Source: a virus
DNA: 41,448 nucleotides
Virus genome (UHGV): UHGV-0135480
Reading direction: 5' to 3' (one strand)
Part shown: in pieces, positions 7,184 to 35,991 of the stretch
Layout: each line of letters begins with the position of its first letter
How positions within the stretch are numbered: position 1 is the first letter of the stretch
Notes under the pieces: model-generated
Told to the model about the DNA's origin: nothing
What the model saw: the letters and a program-made list of their open reading frames with translations, nothing else
The model's database searches: none
Position numbers and translations under genes: made by a program

Positions 7184-8287
7184 ATGTTGACTAATTCTGA
7201 AAAAAGCAGATTTTTCCTTGCTGACCTGACTGGTGAAGTCCAGTCTATCCCAAATACTTATGGGTATATTTCCAACTTAGGTCTGTTCCGTTCAGCACCA
7301 ATCACCCAAACTACTTTCCTTATGGACTTGACTGATTGGGATGTTAGCTTACTGGATGCGGTAGACCGTGATAGCCGTAAAGCAGAGACTAGCGCACCTG
7401 AGCGTGTTCGTCAAATCAGCTTCCCAATGATGTACTTCAAAGAAGTTGAAAGCATTACTCCTGATGAGATTCAGGGTGTACGTCAGCCAGGCACTGCAAA
7501 TGAACTGACTACTGAAGCTGTAGTACGTGCTAAGAAGCTGATGAAGATTCGTACCAAGTTCGATATTACTCGTGAGTTCCTGTTTATGCAAGCTCTGAAG
7601 GGTAAAGTTGTTGATGCTCGTGGTACTCTGTATGCTGACCTGTACAAGCAGTTCGACGTTGAGAAGAAGACTGTTTACTTCGACCTTGACAATCCTAATG
7701 CTGACATCGACGCTTCTATTGAAGAACTGCGTATGCACATGGAAGACGAAGCTAAGACTGGCACTGTAATCAACGGTGAAGAAATTCACGTAGTTGTTGA
7801 CCGTGTGTTCTTCAGCAAACTGGTTAAGCATCCTAAGATTCGTGACGCTTATCTTGCACAGCAGACTCCACTGGCTTGGCAACAGATTACTGGTTCTCTG
7901 AGAACTGGTGGTTCTGACGGTGTTCAGGCTCACATGAATACTTTCTACTACGGTGGTGTTAAGTTTGTCCAGTACAACGGTAAGTTCAAAGACAAGCGTG
8001 GTAAGGTTCATACTCTGGTGAGTATTGACAGCGTAGCAGACACTGTTGGTGTTGGTCATGCTTTCCCTAACGTATCTATGCTGGGTGAAGCTAACAACAT
8101 CTTCGAAGTTGCATATGGCCCATGTCCTAAGATGGGTTATGCAAATACACTTGGTCAGGAACTGTACGTATTTGAATACGAAAAAGACCGTGACGAAGGT
8201 ATTGACTTTGAAGCTCACTCTTACATGCTGCCATACTGTACTCGTCCTCAGTTGCTGGTAGATGTTCGTGCTGACGCCAAAGACTAA
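7184..8287 (+). CDS. major capsid protein (lambda gpE-like)
   Basis: 367 aa, position after protease/scaffold, GGAG RBS, strongly host-optimal codon usage. Similarity to lambda E is recalled from memory (for example the C-terminal region), not searched. Confidence 0.7.
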   Translation: MLTNSEKSRFFLADLTGEVQSIPNTYGYISNLGLFRSAPITQTTFLMDLTDWDVSLLDAVDRDSRKAETSAPERVRQISFPMMYFKEVESITPDEIQGVRQPGTANELTTEAVVRAKKLMKIRTKFDITREFLFMQALKGKVVDARGTLYADLYKQFDVEKKTVYFDLDNPNADIDASIEELRMHMEDEAKTGTVINGEEIHVVVDRVFFSKLVKHPKIRDAYLAQQTPLAWQQITGSLRTGGSDGVQAHMNTFYYGGVKFVQYNGKFKDKRGKVHTLVSIDSVADTVGVGHAFPNVSMLGEANNIFEVAYGPCPKMGYANTLGQELYVFEYEKDRDEGIDFEAHSYMLPYCTRPQLLVDVRADAKD

Positions 8288-30353: not shown

Positions 30354-31454
30354 TTATTCATAATCTCGAATAACTAACCCAACAGGGAACTGTAAAGAAC
30401 CCTTACGAGTCATCTTCTGGAACTGTACCGTTAAGGGCTTCCCGATAAACTCTTCAGGATGTTCAGCAAGATACTGTTTCTTCTCGTGTGTAGTTTTCCA
30501 TGAAACATCTACAAAGACGTTAGGAAGAGTCTCTACAACGAACTTGCCATGACCACGTTTGTCAGTCTTTACACCAGTCACTTTAAATTCTTCAGTGTGC
30601 ATCTTCTTGTGCTTAATCAAGAAGTATGAACGGTGACCACACTCATAGAAGGAGTCTTCAGAGATTGAACGGTACATTGCACCTTCAAACTTAGCTTCAA
30701 CCCACTTATCATGGGCTTCATCAAACTCTTCCCAAGAATTTACACGACGAGACTTAACAGGAACAACTTTACAGCCATCTCTAAAGTCATTCAATGGTGA
30801 AGTCTCAATAATATCTCTACGCTCAGGCCACGTCTTAGTGCTGTCACAGATATCGTACCAGTAGAACTGGAGTAGATGTCGGTCTGGATTGTCAGCATTC
30901 TTAATCATAGACACAATATCTTCTAAGTCCCAACCATGAGCATAAATCTCACCATCAAAGTCTTCTACTTGTGGATGCAATTTAAGCAACAAAAGCAAAT
31001 CTGGGGTTAGTTCTGCTGGGACGTTGTAAATAGTATTCTCACGAGAATAAGCCGTGAAGCTAACTAAATCAGCATCTCTTGAGATTCTACAACGGACACC
31101 ATCAAGTTTTGGTTGAGCATCAGCAGGGAACTTCAGATACTTTGCATGACTAACCTTTGCAGCATCATGAGCAAGCTGTACACCTACCTTCTCAGTATTC
31201 TGTGCAGACTCTTTTGTGTAAGCATAGCCTTTACGGTCAACTTGCTTTTTATACTTAGCAGCAACTTCAAAGAGAGCTTGCTGTTCAGCATTACGCTCAT
31301 TCTTTTTACCGATGTTTTTAGGTTCTGCTGTATACTCTTCAAACATCATCTTGCCATTTTCTTTACCGTAGGTTGTAATAACTTTGTCACCTACAGCAAC
31401 GCATGACCAGACGTTAAAAGAGCCATCTTTATTTTGTTTGTACAGAATTGTCAT
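30354..31454 (-). CDS. ATP-dependent DNA ligase
   Basis: Adenylation motif KLDGVRC (K-x-D-G), size about 366 aa; ATG at 31454 has AGAGG upstream (ORF-track start 31490 is another in-frame ATG). N-terminal region of about 95 aa precedes the catalytic motif. Confidence 0.75.
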   Translation of the reverse strand: MTILYKQNKDGSFNVWSCVAVGDKVITTYGKENGKMMFEEYTAEPKNIGKKNERNAEQQALFEVAAKYKKQVDRKGYAYTKESAQNTEKVGVQLAHDAAKVSHAKYLKFPADAQPKLDGVRCRISRDADLVSFTAYSRENTIYNVPAELTPDLLLLLKLHPQVEDFDGEIYAHGWDLEDIVSMIKNADNPDRHLLQFYWYDICDSTKTWPERRDIIETSPLNDFRDGCKVVPVKSRRVNSWEEFDEAHDKWVEAKFEGAMYRSISEDSFYECGHRSYFLIKHKKMHTEEFKVTGVKTDKRGHGKFVVETLPNVFVDVSWKTTHEKKQYLAEHPEEFIGKPLTVQFQKMTRKGSLQFPVGLVIRDYE

Positions 31455-31647
31455 TTTTAACCTCTGAGTGATACCAAGTGTAACAAGCATTACATGCGTA
31501 AAGCTCTAAGTCATTTTTATCTGGTTTATGGAAACAGTTTGACCCACAACGACACCGGAATAGTTTACCATCAACACGAAGAATGAATGTTTCAAGCTCA
31601 CCATCTTCTGTAAGAACTGCGTTCTTAAATTTATCTTCTACAGTCAT
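31429..31647 (-). CDS. small Cys-rich zinc-ribbon-like protein
   Basis: 72 aa with CRCGSNCFH and CNACYTWYH; 3' end overlaps the ligase start. Confidence 0.45.
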   Translation of the reverse strand: MTVEDKFKNAVLTEDGELETFILRVDGKLFRCRCGSNCFHKPDKNDLELYACNACYTWYHSEVKNDNSVQTK

Positions 31648-31850
31648 TTTCTCTTACCACCAATCTCTACGTCAATCACTTGAACATCACCAGCAACATC
31701 AAACTTATGAATGATGCTTTCCACAGTGTAAGTCCAACCCTCGATTCGAACCAACTCACCTTCTCGTGGGACGATTGGGTTACGTTGAGCTACGGTTGTA
31801 GTGGAGTGAACAACATCATAACAGTAGATATAGTTTACTAGGACTTCCAT
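31644..31850 (-). CDS. hypothetical small protein
   Basis: ORF track extends to a TTG at 31949; ATG at 31850 has GTGAGG upstream and avoids overlap with the lipoprotein gene. Confidence 0.4.
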   Translation of the reverse strand: MEVLVNYIYCYDVVHSTTTVAQRNPIVPREGELVRIEGWTYTVESIIHKFDVAGDVQVIDVEIGGKRK

Positions 31851-31860
31851 CTTGAAAACC

Positions 31861-32118
31861 TCACTCAATAACAGTAGTGTGAGATTGACCATTTTTGCCA
31901 TATCTATAAGATGTTGTTGTTTGAGAGTTGTGGCATCTGACAACAACAATATCCCTGCTTATAGCATCACCATTGAGTTTGTAGATTTTGCAGTCTTGCA
32001 TCTCTGGAGGGAGGCTGTAAGAGGCATCTTTGTTTTCATAAGATGGGTTACAGCCAGCCAGAAAAATTACTACAAGTGCAACCATTACTTTCACACAACT
32101 CTTAACCTTATTGTTCAC
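31861..32118 (-). CDS. small lipoprotein (lipobox LAGC), candidate superinfection-exclusion or envelope protein
   Basis: GTG start with GAGAGG RBS; N-terminus MNNKVKSCVKVMVALVVIFLAGC is a lipoprotein signal peptide; mature part about 63 aa with 2 Cys. Confidence 0.55.
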   Translation of the reverse strand: MNNKVKSCVKVMVALVVIFLAGCNPSYENKDASYSLPPEMQDCKIYKLNGDAISRDIVVVRCHNSQTTTSYRYGKNGQSHTTVIE

Positions 32119-32250
32119 GATAGTCTACCTCTCTGTATGTTTTTAAATAGTGAGTGATGAGTTCTGGTAATTCACTACGTTTAACGTTTGAACGAATAAG
32201 TGTCCAGTCAAAACCTTTACCAACCCTTCCCCAGAGACTGTACATTCTCT

Positions 32251-32469
32251 TCATAGCAACTCCAGAATATCAATACGCTCACCTTTGAGTACTCCAGTAC
32301 GGTCTTTTGCAATCTTACCTTCAACAATAAGAATGTGTGCAGACCTTAAAGTGTCGCTGTTAAAGGTTTTTACGAACCTACTAGGCATGACTACAATGCA
32401 CATCTCCTGAATCAGCTCTGGAGTATAGCAGTTATCATGAAGTTGCTGAATAACGTCTGCAAGTGTCAT
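32251..32469 (-). CDS. hypothetical small protein
   Basis: ATG at 32469 overlaps the upstream stop (ATGA); ORF-track start is TTG at 32484. Confidence 0.4.
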   Translation of the reverse strand: MTLADVIQQLHDNCYTPELIQEMCIVVMPSRFVKTFNSDTLRSAHILIVEGKIAKDRTGVLKGERIDILELL

Positions 32470-32675
32470 TTTTGATGTCTCCAATATTCAATATCTACAA
32501 GTTCTTGTGCAATGCTTTTAAGGTTACTTTTAAGGAAAACTTTCTCACCACCAGACAGGGAAGTATTATCAATGAGTCTGTTCATTCTCTCAAACAACTT
32601 CTGCTTACGATTCTTGATAGTCTCCTTTGAAGCACCTTTCATCATTGCTGCATGGGTTCTTCCACGGTGGCTCAT
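32466..32675 (-). CDS. hypothetical small basic protein
   Basis: 69 aa, ATG at 32675 with strong AGGAGG RBS. Confidence 0.45.
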   Translation of the reverse strand: MSHRGRTHAAMMKGASKETIKNRKQKLFERMNRLIDNTSLSGGEKVFLKSNLKSIAQELVDIEYWRHQK

Positions 32676-32726: not shown

Positions 32727-33251
32727 TCAACTTAGTTTTGCAAATTCTCCGTGGAGTTTAATAGCAGCTTCACAGTAAGCTTTATGGGCTTCTTCTGGTG
32801 TGTCAAACATACCAAGATGATAGTTTTTACCTTGTAAACGTATCATTGCTCGAAACCTTTTACTTATCTTCTGTACACCTTTTGGCAACCAAGATGGGGA
32901 CTTTCTTGACCGATTGCAAGAGTTTTGTGAAGCTGTACAAACCCTTAAATTCAAGTACCTATTGTCCCAACCGTCCCCATTCTTATGGTCAACCTGTAAG
33001 GTTTTATCAGGTAGGTAACCATCCACATATAGTATTGCTAGACGGTTAGCTTGGTAGCCTTTACCATCAAGCAATAACTGAACAGACTTGTGACCATCTG
33101 TGTTTACCCTATAATTTCCTGCCTTTTTACCTCCAAAACGAGAGTTGAAGTTCTTATTGCCTCGTGATACCGGCTCTCTAAACTTCCAAGTAAAGACCCC
33201 TGTTTCGGGGTCGTAGTCCAATAGCTCCTTAAGACGAATTTCTGTAATCAT
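32727..33251 (-). CDS. HNH homing endonuclease with C-terminal AP2-like DNA-binding domain
   Basis: N-terminal LKELLDYDPETGVFTW motif, HNH core VDHKNGDGWDNRYLNLRVCTASQN, C-terminal AP2-like segment; ATG at 33251 (ORF-track TTG at 33290 would overlap the polymerase). Confidence 0.8.
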   Translation of the reverse strand: MITEIRLKELLDYDPETGVFTWKFREPVSRGNKNFNSRFGGKKAGNYRVNTDGHKSVQLLLDGKGYQANRLAILYVDGYLPDKTLQVDHKNGDGWDNRYLNLRVCTASQNSCNRSRKSPSWLPKGVQKISKRFRAMIRLQGKNYHLGMFDTPEEAHKAYCEAAIKLHGEFAKLS

Positions 33252-33261
33252 TTCAACACCA

Positions 33262-35961
33262 TCAATGTACTTCCAACCAGCTCTTACCAACCTTACCTGT
33301 GCCAGTTACAAGCGTCTCACTCTTCAAACCTAAATTCTTAGATGCCTGACCATACATCCAGTCAGTTATGGCTTTCACTTCTTGAGTCATACTTTCTGGA
33401 CATTCCCAACTGTTTTCATCGTGGTATGCCAGCAAAAGCCTCGCACCGATTGCTGGTTTTCGTCCATTTAATTTTGTCAAACCTTCTTCACACGCTCTTC
33501 TGCAAGCAAGGTTAATTGCCTCATTTTGAATCTGAGCCTCTGAACCCATGAGCAAATAATTCAACAACTTATGTGGAGATTTACACCACAACCAAGCTCC
33601 AGCAACCTTTACAAAACCACCTTTAGAGATTGCAGCAGTCTTACCAAATACCTCTTCAAGTGCCTTTTTAGTTGCTTTGTAGTCAGCTTCCAAATCATCC
33701 AGCAACTTCTTAATTTTAGGCAAACGGATAAAGTAAGTCTGCTTAGTCAGTGCACCTTCCTGAGTAGTTGCAGCTTTAATCGTCTTAGCAAACTTCTCAT
33801 CACCTGCACCAAACAAAAGTGCATAGATACCATTCTTAGCTTTCTTACGACCCTTGCTAATCTCATGGAGAAGGTTCTCATCCTGAGTAGCTCGACAAGT
33901 CAAGATATCCTGCTCATCATTCAAGCTAAAGTAAATACTGTTCAGTGTGTGTGCATCAGTCCCTGAATAGACAACGTACAGGTCATTCTCAGAGTCATAG
34001 CGAAGGTACTTATCAATCTCTGGGTTGAGGTACTCATCAAAGTGTTTGCAGTAATAGCGTCCATCTTCTTGACGAATAAACTCAATCTCTTCTTTACCTT
34101 GCGTTACCGCTTTGGTGAAGTCTTTATCACCCATAAAGTTACAAAGGAGAACTAGCTGGGCTGAGTTCATGTCTACAGAGACAACGTTAGTACCTTCTTC
34201 ACAAATCCACACTGCCCTCATTGGTTCCCCATAGACAGCAGCACCAGACGGTACGTTTACAATACCATATTGTGTCATACGTCCAGTTGAAGTACCAAAC
34301 ACCATTGCACCAGCACTAAGGCGACCATCAGGACGAATCTGGTTCAACCAACCTTTTTCATCATCCTTTGAGTTCTCAATAGTTCTGCGTCGGTGCATCA
34401 AAGTATAGTACTTAGCAATCTTCTGTCCAAGTTCACCTTCAATCGTATCATAAGATGACTCAGTAAGCTTTGGTGAAGTACGGATTAAGCAAGGCTCAAG
34501 CAAATCTGTGTATTTTTTCACAGACCAGTTATGCTCAATGTACTGGACACCTTCATGTTCAACATAGCTCAAACCACACCGCTCAACCATTTCCTGCCAC
34601 TTAGGATGTTTTGTAATCATCTTTTTATTGTCTTTGAAACGACAAACTTTAACAGGGCGACCATCTGAGTCTTTCTTGTAGTTCCAGTCATCTGGTATCC
34701 AACCAACTGATTTCAAGTAGTCTTTAACAACTGCTACCTGAGTCATACGAGAAACTTCAAACTCAATTGGTGTATACGGTGCATCAATCAATCCTGTGTA
34801 TCGACTTGACTCAAGTTCAAAGTGGTTAACAACGTGGCTGTTATAGTACTTCACAGTTTTGACTGTTTTTACTGACTTCCAGTCTTTGCATTTCTTACCA
34901 ATCTTTGCGTTCAACTCATTGCAAATTGCACGAGCATCCTTCATTGCTACAAAGCCTTCCTTGTACTCTTCACCAGTTACAGAGTTGGTTGGTGTATAGC
35001 AATTTCTCTTTTCAATGTTAAAAATCTTTGTAGTTGGCTTACCAAATGGTTTGATTTCATAAGTCTGCATCTCACCATTACGTACCTGCTGACGATACTT
35101 CGTCTTAGGGTACTTGGTAATTCTTTTCAGTCCATCTGCATGACCAAATGCTTCAACATACTCATTCCAAGCCTTTGCAAACTCTTCTCCAGTGACTTTA
35201 CCTTTGGTCTTAATAGTTGGAGGTAGATGTGGTTCAACCTCTGAAGCAAGCTCATTAGTCAACTTGTCAAGTTCCTTTACATGGAACTCCATAAGCTCTT
35301 TATCAGCTTTCCAGCCATTGATAGCTTGTTGACTCATCCAGAAAGATGTTTCTTTAGCTCGCATGTAGGTTTCATAAGTGTCTATGCCACACTTCTTAAG
35401 CTTGAGATATTCATTATCAAGTGCCCGTTTAGTTTTGGCGTTAATACGGATATCTTCTACAACACGAGTGAAGATTTCTGCATTCCACACACCCCAGTGT
35501 TCAATCTCTGGTTTACGAACACCAACACGAGCACCCCATGCAGCCAAACCATGAGCACCTTTATAACCCTTTGGAGTTGGTCTATCCATCCACTGAACAC
35601 GAGACTGGATAAGAGAATCCTGAAAGAAATTACTCCACGGTTTACACTTTGGATTATCAAAGTTCCATAAATCAGGTGCAATGTGATTGAAAACCCACCA
35701 GTCATAACCGAGACCATTATGGATGCAAAGACGTTTTGCCTTTAACGCAAACTCAATACCTTCACGTAAGCCACCCTTGATGTACTTGGTGTACTTGTGA
35801 CCGAGAATAGGTTCATCTGTAAAGACCCATACAGGTGGCTCTTCATCGTCAGATTTATAGTCTGCGAAAGCCATTACGTGCACTTTAGTGAACTCAAGGA
35901 GTAAACCATCAGTTTCTGTATCACCAACTAAATGTAAGTTTTTAAAATCTACGTTTTCCAT
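33262..35961 (-). CDS. DNA polymerase, family A, with N-terminal 3'-5' exonuclease domain
   Basis: About 899 aa; Exo I motif LVGDTETDGL near the N-terminus, polymerase-domain length and C-terminal His typical of Pol I/T7 gp5-type enzymes; ATG at 35961 has GAGGGA upstream (ORF-track ATG 35991 also possible). Confidence 0.9.
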   Translation of the reverse strand: MENVDFKNLHLVGDTETDGLLLEFTKVHVMAFADYKSDDEEPPVWVFTDEPILGHKYTKYIKGGLREGIEFALKAKRLCIHNGLGYDWWVFNHIAPDLWNFDNPKCKPWSNFFQDSLIQSRVQWMDRPTPKGYKGAHGLAAWGARVGVRKPEIEHWGVWNAEIFTRVVEDIRINAKTKRALDNEYLKLKKCGIDTYETYMRAKETSFWMSQQAINGWKADKELMEFHVKELDKLTNELASEVEPHLPPTIKTKGKVTGEEFAKAWNEYVEAFGHADGLKRITKYPKTKYRQQVRNGEMQTYEIKPFGKPTTKIFNIEKRNCYTPTNSVTGEEYKEGFVAMKDARAICNELNAKIGKKCKDWKSVKTVKTVKYYNSHVVNHFELESSRYTGLIDAPYTPIEFEVSRMTQVAVVKDYLKSVGWIPDDWNYKKDSDGRPVKVCRFKDNKKMITKHPKWQEMVERCGLSYVEHEGVQYIEHNWSVKKYTDLLEPCLIRTSPKLTESSYDTIEGELGQKIAKYYTLMHRRRTIENSKDDEKGWLNQIRPDGRLSAGAMVFGTSTGRMTQYGIVNVPSGAAVYGEPMRAVWICEEGTNVVSVDMNSAQLVLLCNFMGDKDFTKAVTQGKEEIEFIRQEDGRYYCKHFDEYLNPEIDKYLRYDSENDLYVVYSGTDAHTLNSIYFSLNDEQDILTCRATQDENLLHEISKGRKKAKNGIYALLFGAGDEKFAKTIKAATTQEGALTKQTYFIRLPKIKKLLDDLEADYKATKKALEEVFGKTAAISKGGFVKVAGAWLWCKSPHKLLNYLLMGSEAQIQNEAINLACRRACEEGLTKLNGRKPAIGARLLLAYHDENSWECPESMTQEVKAITDWMYGQASKNLGLKSETLVTGTGKVGKSWLEVH

Positions 35962-35991
35962 TTTTACTCCCTCTAAAATCATTAACCTCAT

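What the first reader, a model, noticed from the sequence alone, without database searches (positions are those of the whole stretch)
31861..32118. Small lipoprotein encoded in the early region: candidate receptor-blocking or superinfection-exclusion factor
A GTG-initiated 85-aa ORF with a textbook lipoprotein signal (lipobox LAGC) and a short two-Cys mature domain. Small outer-membrane lipoproteins expressed early by lytic phages, such as T5 Llp or Cor-type proteins, block the phage's own receptor. The assignment is by analogy only.
Basis: inference. Interest (0 to 1): 0.5.

Follow-up and report, generated by a model that had tools for sequence, protein, structure and literature searches.

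The report
Accessory periplasmic lipoprotein of Felix O1-like phage
The ORF is a real, strongly conserved gene for a small membrane-anchored periplasmic protein from a very large phage-only family of unknown function (DUF4884 / PHROG 902); it is unrelated to the known receptor-blocking lipoproteins, and its role in blocking superinfection is plausible but untested.

Summary
On the minus strand, 32118..31861, a GTG-initiated 85-codon ORF encodes a PROSITE-type lipoprotein signal (lipobox LAGC, Cys23) and a 62-residue mature domain with two further cysteines. It is the only credible lipoprotein signal in the window and is under purifying selection (dN/dS 0.06-0.13).

The window is a Felix O1-like myophage, and the ORF is Felix O1 ORF213. 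It belongs to PHROG 902, and its homologues carry the label Pfam DUF4884. The family has about 1,200 clusters at 50% identity. It occurs in Felix O1-, rV5-, T4- and T5-like phages, jumbo phages, and Acinetobacter, Vibrio and Aeromonas phages. All members keep the lipobox, the motifs LPxxLxDC and VVRCPNSxT, and an even number of cysteines.

The gene is not an o-spanin: relatives carry a separate i-/o-spanin pair elsewhere. Neither sequence nor predicted fold links it to Llp, Cor or Rtp45. Felixounaviruses use LPS as receptor, the gene is not next to tail-fibre genes, and the family spans phages with unrelated receptors. An Llp-like block of the phage's own receptor is therefore unlikely.

The gene lies in a 391-bp cassette that some Felixounaviruses lack. 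In two distant phages a homologue lies beside a Spackle-like or Imm-like exclusion gene. My best guess is a periplasmic exclusion or envelope-protection factor with a conserved target. Its function is unproven.

The parts
31861..32118 (-). Complete CDS: 85 codons plus TGA stop, GTG start. Pre-lipoprotein of the DUF4884 / PHROG 902 family; equals Felix O1 ORF213 and CPT_Moogle40.
   Evidence: dN/dS 0.06-0.13
32128..32134 (-). Shine-Dalgarno-like AGAGAGG, 9 nt upstream of the GTG start.
   Evidence: read directly from the sequence
32053..32118 (-). Signal peptide, residues 1-22. The n-region holds K4, K6 and K10; the h-region is VMVALVVIFLAG. An alternative in-frame GTG start lies at 32094 (codon 9).
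   Evidence: relatives start MWK.../MKK... about 7 residues later
32050..32061 (-). Lipobox L20-A21-G22-C23. Cys23 is the predicted lipid-modified first residue of the mature protein. Asn24 at +2 predicts Lol export to the outer membrane.
   Evidence: PROSITE-type rule; a lipobox is present in essentially all 253 family members read. Sorting is inferred from the E. coli +2 rule.
31864..32052 (-). Mature domain, 63 residues including the lipid-modified Cys. Predicted to be a small five-stranded beta domain after a linker of about 12 residues.
   Evidence: AlphaFold2 on a 96-sequence alignment, mean pLDDT 71
31990..32013 (-). Conserved motif L36-P-P-E-M-Q-D-C43 (family consensus LPxGLxDC). Cys43 is the first of the conserved cysteine pair.
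   Evidence: alignments A1 and A2: P37, D42 and C43 are invariant or nearly so
31918..31944 (-). Family signature V59-V-R-C62-H63-N-S-Q-T67 (consensus VVRCPNSxT). Cys62 is the second conserved cysteine. This copy has His where at least 90% of the family has Pro.
   Evidence: the exact variant is seen on 33 contigs
31854..32244 (.). 391-bp insertion/deletion cassette holding the lipoprotein gene and almost all of the upstream 48-codon ORF. It is cleanly absent from Felixounavirus phiWec172 and Salmonella phage D1-2.
   Evidence: the family HMM finds nothing in those loci, while the Felix O1 control scores 2e-32
32108..32254 (-). Upstream 48-codon ORF (PHROG 2381, unknown function, no hydrophobic segment). 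Its stop overlaps the lipoprotein start, and it shares the cassette with the lipoprotein gene.

Best explanation
Shown: the ORF is a genuine, purifying-selected gene of a Felix O1-like myophage. It lies in the tightly packed leftward DNA polymerase-to-ligase gene block, with overlapping or closely abutting reading frames; co-transcription with these genes is inferred from that packing, as I examined no transcript data. It encodes a pre-lipoprotein. The mature 62-63-residue domain belongs to a very large family, PHROG 902, labelled Pfam DUF4884 on its homologues. The family is found almost only in phages of Gram-negative bacteria. The gene is accessory: some Felixounaviruses lack it cleanly.

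Inferred: after Sec export, lipidation at Cys23 and cleavage by signal peptidase II, the protein is tethered by a linker of about 12 residues to a periplasm-facing membrane leaflet. Asn at +2 predicts the outer membrane in enterobacteria. It folds into a small beta domain clamped by a Cys43-Cys62 disulfide. A conserved polar patch (D42, R61, N64, S65, T67, K75) is probably the binding surface.

Proposed function, the least certain step: it acts in the periplasm of the infected cell on a target that is conserved across hosts or across incoming phages. Candidates are the cell-wall or envelope machinery, or the tail-tip, lysozyme or DNA-conduit step of a superinfecting phage. It would then be a post-adsorption superinfection-exclusion or envelope-protection factor, like T4 Spackle and Imm, rather than an Llp/Cor-style mask of this phage's own receptor.
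For: Gene and lipoprotein signal. Purifying selection.

Family: PHROG 902 at E 1.9e-17. There are 270 homologues, nearly all labelled PF16225, which is named DUF4884. The family has 1,213 representatives at 50% identity with E <= 1e-3, and all of the best 150 listed are 72-154 aa.

Extracytoplasmic location: the lipobox is kept in essentially all members, and the number of mature-domain cysteines is even in 200 of 209.

Phage-restricted and widespread: the family occurs in Ounavirinae, Vequintavirinae, Stephanstirmvirinae, Asteriusvirus, Straboviridae, Demerecviridae, Saclayvirus, Obolenskvirus and many Vibrio and Aeromonas phages. The narrow VVRCPNSST pattern found one relative in 185,579 bacterial species genomes.

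Stand-alone unit: no neighbouring gene is conserved across 25 non-redundant loci.

Accessory: the 391-bp cassette is absent from phiWec172 and D1-2.

Association with exclusion genes: in the T4-like phage Acj61 the next gene, 27 nt downstream, is a Spackle homologue (phrog_1586, E 9e-17), in the region upstream of 61.1 and gene 61, where from memory T4 sp (61.3) lies. In Acinetobacter phage QH4 an Imm_superinfect gene (E 8e-14) lies about 410 nt downstream, with two small genes in between.

Against receptor masking: the receptor is LPS, and the +2 residue varies across the family, with Asp (the inner-membrane retention signal) in 41 of 209. This argues that the anchoring membrane is not critical.
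Against: No experiment or characterised homologue supports any function. The association with sp and imm appears in only 2 of about 25 loci and could be chance; roughly 0.5-1 such event would be expected if every genome carried one such gene. Elsewhere the neighbours are replication, anti-defence (Acb1, ArdC-like) or unknown genes. The structure model has only moderate confidence (pLDDT 71) and gives no informative fold match. The window copy carries His in place of the nearly invariant Pro of the signature motif, so this allele might be altered in activity.
Confidence: 0.4

Rival explanations
1. It is an Llp/Cor/Rtp45-type receptor blocker. The outer-membrane-anchored lipoprotein would bind the periplasmic face of an outer-membrane protein. 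Candidates are a secondary receptor, or the LptDE translocon that delivers the LPS receptor. Binding would allosterically prevent adsorption of this phage and its relatives, and spare progeny from cell debris.
For: It is a small lipoprotein with a disulfide pair and Asn at +2 (outer-membrane sorting), encoded in an early-type module. There is precedent for periplasmic lipoproteins that remodel FhuA (Llp) and LptDE (Rtp45) (PMC12685063, PMC9586334). Its accessory, dispensable nature fits an exclusion gene.
Against: The mature domain has no sequence or predicted-fold similarity to Llp, Cor or Rtp45. The gene is not adjacent to tail-fibre or receptor-binding genes, unlike T1 cor, which lies at the end of the tail-gene block, and, from memory, T5 llp next to oad. 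The Felixounavirus receptor is LPS. The same strongly conserved motif occurs in myophages, siphophages and jumbo phages of Escherichia, Vibrio, Acinetobacter and Aeromonas, which cannot share one receptor. About a fifth of members carry Asp at +2, predicted to retain them in the inner membrane.
Confidence: 0.17
2. It is a counter-defence or host-takeover factor. The periplasmic lipoprotein would neutralise a conserved host envelope component that harms infection, such as an envelope-sensing defence system, a periplasmic protease or nuclease, or an envelope stress sensor. It would not act against other phages.
For: In several phages the gene sits in accessory early regions beside anti-defence genes: Acb1 two genes upstream (about 130 nt, across a 46-codon ORF) in L015, and an ArdC-N-like gene, kinase and ASCH genes nearby. 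It is a stand-alone, mobile, dispensable cassette. Conservation across many host genera fits a conserved host target.
Against: No known anti-defence family matches it in Pfam or PHROGs; I did not scan PADLOC. No defence system is known to be inhibited from the periplasm by a lipoprotein. The neighbourhood signal is as weak as the one for exclusion genes.
Confidence: 0.15
3. It is the outer-membrane subunit of a spanin (Rz1-like o-spanin), or another lysis protein that fuses or disrupts the outer membrane at the end of infection.
For: It is a small outer-membrane lipoprotein. There are weak PHROG hits to 'Rz-like spanin' families: phrog_456 at E 0.058, and 8 of 96 members hit it at E <= 0.01. 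In phage 4MG the homologue follows an 81-aa N-terminally anchored protein annotated 'Rz-like spanin'.
Against: Neither flanking ORF in the window has a transmembrane segment. Moogle carries a canonical overlapped i-/o-spanin pair near rIIB, and homologues of that i-spanin occur in 261 Ounavirinae records. No partner gene is conserved next to family members. The domain is a folded, disulfide-clamped beta domain rather than a short proline-rich peptide. The weak spanin hits map to the signal peptide region. The gene is missing from viable Felixounaviruses. The periplasmic part of 4MG gp112 is only about 40 residues, too short for an i-spanin.
Confidence: 0.03
4. It is a chance ORF, or a decaying gene with no function.
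For: It has a GTG start and overlaps the upstream ORF. The nearly invariant Pro of the signature motif is replaced by His in this copy.
Against: dN/dS is 0.06-0.13. About 197 orthologues above 60% identity occur in Ounavirinae records. The family has about 1,200 clusters with invariant cysteines. A Shine-Dalgarno sequence is present. The identical protein occurs on 33 contigs.
Confidence: 0.02

Closest known systems
Pfam DUF4884 (PF16225) / PHROG 902: uncharacterised small phage lipoproteins, e.g. Felix O1 ORF213, CPT_Moogle40, Acj61p058, Vibrio phage JSF12 gp028
   Same: Direct homology, with PHROG 902 at E 1.9e-17. The architecture is the same: signal peptide, lipobox, linker of about 12 residues, LPxxLxDC, VVRCPNSxT and GK. 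The size is the same (72-154 aa among the members read) and members are stand-alone genes in early or accessory regions.
   Different: This copy has a GTG start with a longer n-region than most relatives, and His instead of the nearly invariant Pro after the second conserved Cys. No family member has a known function.
T5 Llp (lytic conversion lipoprotein; PDB 8a60)
   Same: A small lipoprotein of a virulent phage, made before lysis and predicted to face the periplasm. [quoted passage not shown]
   Different: There is no detectable sequence similarity beyond the signal peptide, and Llp is not among the fold matches. From memory, llp sits next to the receptor-binding protein gene; this gene sits between DNA polymerase and ligase. 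Llp targets the protein receptor FhuA, whereas Felixounaviruses use LPS.
Cor exclusion lipoprotein (T1, phi80, N15; PHROG 1119)
   Same: A lipoprotein of about 75 aa with two cysteines in the mature part. Full-length family members often hit the Cor PHROG weakly (42 of 96).
   Different: The hits disappear when signal peptides are removed (0 of 9). Profile-profile comparison of the mature domains gives probability 0.2%. T1 cor lies at the end of the tail-gene block.
Rtp45 and related exclusion lipoproteins of small siphophages that bind LptDE (PMC12685063)
   Same: A periplasmic lipoprotein of about 6 kDa. It shows that a periplasmic lipoprotein can affect an LPS-related outer-membrane machine.
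   Different: Neither the profile search nor the fold search of the PDB returned an LptDE/Rtp45 entry (9RPS, named). I did not confirm that this entry is in those copies. Those phages use LptD itself as receptor, and their gene is linked to the RBP module.
T4 Spackle (Sp, gene 61.3) and Imm
   Same: Proposed functional analogy: proteins exported to the envelope from early genes of virulent phages that act after adsorption. A DUF4884 gene lies immediately upstream of the Spackle homologue in Acj61, and near an Imm homologue in QH4.
   Different: There is no homology. From memory, not tested here: Spackle is a soluble all-helical periplasmic protein with a signal-peptidase-I signal. The QH4 Imm homologue is visibly a hydrophobic membrane protein. 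The target here is a lipid-anchored beta domain.
Rz1-type o-spanins
   Same: A small outer-membrane lipoprotein encoded by a phage.
   Different: It has no cognate i-spanin gene, it is a folded domain with an intramolecular cysteine pair, and a separate bona fide spanin pair exists in relatives.

Membership tests
Bacterial/phage lipoprotein precursor (PROSITE PS51257-type signal) | A K/R in the first 7 residues, an uncharged h-region, a lipobox [LVI][ASTVI][GAS]C, and the Cys at position 15-35 | tested here: met
   K4 and K6; h-region V13-I18; LAGC with Cys23. Also met from the alternative GTG start (Cys15). It is the only credible match in the window.
Bacterial/phage lipoprotein precursor (PROSITE PS51257-type signal) | Actual diacylglyceryl modification and cleavage by signal peptidase II | not testable with these tools
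   Requires globomycin or palmitate-labelling experiments.
PHROG 902 / Pfam DUF4884 | Significant profile match over the mature domain | tested here: met
   phrog_902 at E 1.9e-17 for the full-length protein and 1.6e-10 for the mature domain alone.
PHROG 902 / Pfam DUF4884 | Match to Pfam model PF16225 | tested here: inconclusive
   Precomputed tables label nearly all homologues PF16225:DUF4884.
PHROG 902 / Pfam DUF4884 | Conserved motifs LPxxLxDC, VVRCPNSxT and GK, with two conserved cysteines | tested here: met
   All are present, except that the Pro after the second Cys is His in this copy.
T5 Llp family | Sequence or fold homology of the mature domain to Llp | tested here: not met
T5 Llp family | Gene adjacent to the receptor-binding protein gene, with an outer-membrane protein as receptor | tested here: not met
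   The gene lies between DNA polymerase (33262..35991) and ligase (30354..31490). The Felixounavirus receptor is LPS according to the literature.
Cor (PHROG 1119) | Profile match that extends over the mature domain | tested here: not met
   Of 96 full-length members, 42 hit at E <= 0.01. None of 9 mature-only domains hit at E <= 0.1. hhalign of the mature domains gave probability 0.2% and E 0.29.
Two-component spanin, o-spanin subunit | A cognate i-spanin gene (N-terminal TMD, long periplasmic domain) that embeds, overlaps or adjoins it | tested here: not met
   The flanking ORFs (48 aa and 68 aa) have no hydrophobic segment. The spanin pair lies elsewhere in Moogle, and its i-spanin is found in 261 Ounavirinae records.
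Unimolecular spanin (T1 gp11 type) | An N-terminal lipoprotein signal plus a C-terminal transmembrane domain | tested here: not met
   The C-terminal half is polar (…TTTSYRYGKNGQSHTTVIE) with no hydrophobic stretch.
T4 Spackle (PF25676 / phrog_1586) | Profile match to the Spackle family | tested here: not met
   The target has no hit. Only its neighbour in Acj61 matches.

The most novel reading that the evidence does not exclude
DUF4884 proteins may be a pan-phage, receptor-independent periplasmic effector. In this reading, a lipid-anchored, disulfide-clamped mini-domain uses its invariant D/R-C-P-N-S-x-T/K patch to bind one deeply conserved envelope component of Gram-negative cells, or a conserved feature of penetrating phage tails. 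It would give broad, heterotypic exclusion or envelope protection. That would explain why Felix O1-, T4-, T5- and rV5-like phages and jumbo phages all carry it as a mobile single-gene cassette.
Probability: 0.25. Interest if true: 0.65.

Novelty: new variant of a known kind. Interest (0 to 1): 0.4.

Why it matters
Small lipoproteins made by virulent phages are the best-understood route to superinfection exclusion at the outer membrane (Llp, Cor, Rtp45). Each known example is tied to one receptor. This family is different. It is among the most widespread small envelope-targeted phage proteins, with about 1,200 clusters at 50% identity across at least eight phage lineages, including Felix O1-like phages, which the literature proposes for Salmonella biocontrol in food production. 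Its signature motif is nearly invariant, and it has never been studied.

If it targets a conserved envelope component, it could reveal a general vulnerability or checkpoint in phage entry. It could also affect how phages in cocktails interfere with one another. If it turns out to be an ordinary accessory protein, the practical gain is better annotation: 'DUF4884 periplasmic lipoprotein, not a spanin and not Cor'.

Tried and rejected
Pfam-A hmmscan of the target and 14 relatives gave nothing useful, only sub-threshold chance hits such as MIB_HERC2 and Zn_ribbon_InsA. It did not reproduce the precomputed DUF4884 label.

The first word-indexed protein search found only close relatives. An alignment seeded with tblastn hits was needed to reach the rest of the family.

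The search for related loci failed with the broad alignment. A narrower alignment gave 15 viral loci and one bacterial locus.

Neighbourhood clustering over 25 loci found no conserved partner. Pfam and PHROG scans of 144 neighbours found no recurrent family.

The apparent link to Cor (PHROG 1119) was rejected as a signal-peptide artefact. The o-spanin idea was rejected.

Literature searches for Felixounavirus plus lipoprotein, DUF4884, PF16225, lipobox plus superinfection exclusion, and phage-encoded lipoprotein found no study of this family. The only mention was an annotation line in phage Henu8.

The listing of cluster members put the protein in the cluster of the neighbouring 68-aa ORF. I treat this as a clustering artefact.

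Full report
**What the window is.** The 6 kb around the finding is 90-94% identical at nucleotide level to more than 250 Felix O1-like myophages (Ounavirinae; Escherichia, Salmonella, Shigella and Citrobacter phages). The local gene order on the minus strand is:
- DNA polymerase (33262..35991)
- an HNH homing endonuclease (32727..33290)
- four small ORFs, of which the target is the last (32466..32675, 32251..32484, 32108..32254, then 31861..32118)
- two more small ORFs
- DNA ligase (30354..31490)

The target corresponds to Felix O1 ORF213 ('unknown') and CPT_Moogle40 ('hypothetical protein').

**Checking the observation.** The ORF is on the minus strand, 32118 to 31861, with a GTG start. An AGAGAGG Shine-Dalgarno-like element lies 9 nt upstream. 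The start overlaps the TAA stop of the upstream 48-codon ORF by 11 nt. Ten nucleotides after its TGA stop comes the ATG (31850) of the next gene.

The product is MNNKVKSCVKVMVALVVIFLAGC|NPSYENKDASYSLPPEMQDCKIYKLNGDAISRDIVVVRCHNSQTTTSYRYGKNGQSHTTVIE. It satisfies a PROSITE PS51257-type lipoprotein rule. In a scan of all 994 start-specific ORF candidates in the window, only this ORF matched, from GTG-1 or the in-frame GTG-9, apart from a 36-aa out-of-frame ORF at 8151..8261 that overlaps the 367-codon ORF at 7184..8287. Close relatives begin MWK.../MLK... about seven residues later. The exact start is therefore uncertain, but it does not change the mature protein.

Nei-Gojobori dN/dS of the mature region is 0.058 against Felix O1, 0.131 against Bas63 and 0.063 for Felix O1 against Bas63. 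Synonymous sites are saturated against Moogle. The identical 85-aa protein is on record from 33 other contigs.

**The family.**
- PHROG 902 (unknown function) matches at E 1.9e-17.
- tblastn finds relatives in 576 phage records. Beyond the Ounavirinae these include Seunavirus 4MG, a Stephanstirmvirinae Klebsiella phage, the jumbo Asteriusvirus phages PBECO4 and 121Q, Acinetobacter Obolenskvirus and Saclayvirus, T4-like Acj61, Aeh1 and PX29, the T5-like Vibrio phage JSF12, and about 300 Vibrio phages.
- A profile search gave 270 homologues, nearly all labelled PF16225 in the precomputed table. That accession is named DUF4884 in the context tables.
- An exhaustive HMMER search of 1.84 billion representatives gave 1,213 clusters at E <= 1e-3 and 659 at E <= 1e-10. 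The best 150 listed are all 72-154 aa.
- All 253 sequences I read keep a signal peptide and lipobox, a linker of about 12 residues, LPxxLxDC, the signature VVRCPNSxT, and GK.
- Apart from the lipid-modified Cys, the mature domain holds 2, 4 or 6 cysteines in 200 of 209 members. This is the pattern expected for disulfide-bonded, exported proteins.
- With the narrow pattern VVRCPNSST, only one of 185,579 bacterial species genomes (Hylemonella gracilis) encodes a relative. The family is thus essentially phage-borne.
- The session's own hmmscan against Pfam-A did not reproduce the DUF4884 hit. I leave this discrepancy unexplained.

**Testing the named analogies.**

*Spanin.* Neither neighbour in the window has a hydrophobic segment. 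Moogle, annotated by the Texas A&M group, has an overlapped i-/o-spanin pair near rIIB while its homologue of the target is 'hypothetical'. That i-spanin has homologues in 261 Ounavirinae records. In 4MG the homologue follows an 81-aa protein labelled 'Rz-like spanin' (phrog_6073). The periplasmic part of that protein is only about 40 residues, and the arrangement is not seen elsewhere.

*Cor.* Of 96 full-length members, 42 hit the Cor PHROG 1119 at E <= 0.01. None of nine mature-only domains does so at E <= 0.1. T1 Cor hits PHROG 902 only over residues 1-36. hhalign of mature-domain profiles gives probability 0.2%. The signal peptide produces the apparent link.

*Llp.* There is no homology. 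The gene is not next to receptor-binding genes. Felixounaviruses adsorb to LPS (PMC8300805).

**Context and dispensability.** In 25 non-redundant loci no neighbouring gene family recurs, and Pfam and PHROG scans of 144 neighbours show no recurrent family. The gene therefore behaves as a stand-alone cassette inside early, replication or accessory regions. Examples are Vibrio phage D386, where it lies between the origin-binding protein and a helicase, and locus L015, where it lies two genes downstream of Acb1.

Two associations stand out. In Acj61 the gene lies 27 nt upstream of a Spackle homologue (phrog_1586 at E 9e-17; PF25676 at E 2e-4, below the gathering score), in the region upstream of 61.1 and gene 61 where, from memory, T4 sp (61.3) lies. 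In Acinetobacter phage QH4 an Imm_superinfect gene (E 8e-14) lies about 410 nt downstream, with two small genes in between. With 25 loci this is suggestive but not statistically compelling.

Within the genus, the block 31854..32244 (lipoprotein gene plus the 48-codon ORF) is precisely absent from phiWec172 and Salmonella phage D1-2, and the family HMM finds nothing there. About 197 of roughly 260 Ounavirinae records carry an orthologue above 60% identity. The gene is therefore accessory.

**How it most likely works.**
- Shown: it is an exported, lipobox-bearing, cysteine-paired small domain; it is phage-restricted, widespread and dispensable.
- Inferred from the E. coli +2 rule: Asn24 directs this copy to the outer membrane.
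- Across the family the +2 residue is Glu in 44 members, Asp in 41, Asn in 29, Ser in 24 and Thr in 22. The anchoring membrane is therefore probably not critical. This fits a target that is soluble, spans the periplasm, or arrives from outside better than it fits a specific outer-membrane receptor.
- The near-invariance of the signature across phages of many host genera points to a conserved target.

My best estimate is a post-adsorption exclusion or envelope-protection factor, working like T4 Spackle or Imm. I give this whole explanation a confidence of 0.4. The rivals are an Llp/Rtp45-like blocker of an outer-membrane machine (0.17), a periplasmic counter-defence or host-takeover factor (0.15), a spanin or lysis protein (0.03) and a non-functional ORF (0.02). 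These figures do not sum to 1; the remainder covers functions I have not thought of.

**Novelty and verdict.** The gene is catalogued (Felix O1 ORF213, DUF4884, PHROG 902), but I found no functional study of the family. It resembles the known kind 'small phage lipoprotein acting on the envelope', yet it is unrelated to every characterised member and is not tied to a receptor. I therefore rate it a new variant of a known kind. Interest is moderate: the family is large and strikingly conserved, but nothing here reveals a mechanism.

Noticed in passing
window 31930-31932 (codon 63, minus strand): This copy has His (CAC) where at least 90% of the family, including Felix O1, Bas63 and Moogle, has Pro in the signature RCPNS. 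The exact protein is nevertheless seen on 33 contigs, so it is a circulating allele and not a sequencing error.
   Followed up: partly
window 31854-32244: The lipoprotein gene and the upstream 48-codon ORF (PHROG 2381) form a 391-bp block. It is cleanly missing from Felixounavirus phiWec172 and Salmonella phage D1-2. In some metagenomic relatives (P0008) the first 9-10 codons of the 48-codon ORF are fused in frame to the lipoprotein.
   Followed up: partly
window 31644-31949 (minus strand): The mechanical 101-codon TTG ORF overlaps the target by 89 nt. PHROG 4427 matches only residues 34-101, so the real gene probably starts at ATG 31850 (68 aa), 10 nt after the target's stop codon.
   Followed up: partly
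window 32727-33290 (minus strand): A 187-codon ORF lies between DNA polymerase and the small-ORF block, and its start overlaps the end of the polymerase gene. Relatives annotate it as an HNH homing endonuclease. Coverage gaps among relatives suggest its presence is variable.
   Followed up: no
homologues P0001-P0120; window protein: Precomputed tables label nearly all homologues PF16225 (DUF4884).
   Followed up: partly
(cluster look-up of the window protein): The 90% cluster that holds the window protein has the neighbouring 68-aa ORF product (MEVLVNYIY...) as its representative and most of its members. This looks like a clustering artefact in the collection.
   Followed up: no
L019 (Acinetobacter phage Acj61) 3956-4543: The DUF4884 lipoprotein gene (Acj61p058) lies directly upstream of an unannotated Spackle homologue (Acj61p057; phrog_1586, E 9e-17), in the region upstream of 61.1 and gene 61.
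   Followed up: yes
L002 (phage 4MG) 2238-3399: The family member gp113 is flanked by two membrane proteins. One is gp112 (81 aa, N-terminal TMD), labelled 'Rz-like spanin' (phrog_6073) but too short to span the periplasm. The other is gp114 (215 aa, two TMDs). The spanin label looks like a propagated mis-annotation.
   Followed up: partly
L021 3977-4596 (IMG/VR contig of 193 kb): Two family members lie in tandem with overlapping stop and start codons. The second is highly divergent (E 7.5e-8). This shows local duplication and divergence of the cassette.
   Followed up: no
GenBank GU169904.1 (Staphylococcus phage SA1), MG065668.1 (Campylobacter phage A126): Records named for Gram-positive or Campylobacter hosts contain Felix O1-like sequence, including this gene. 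They are probably chimeric or contaminated records.
   Followed up: no
window 8151-8261 (+ strand): The only other ORF that passes the lipobox rule is a 36-codon out-of-frame ORF that overlaps the 367-codon ORF at 7184..8287 (probably the major capsid gene, by synteny with Bas63). I take it to be a chance match.
   Followed up: yes
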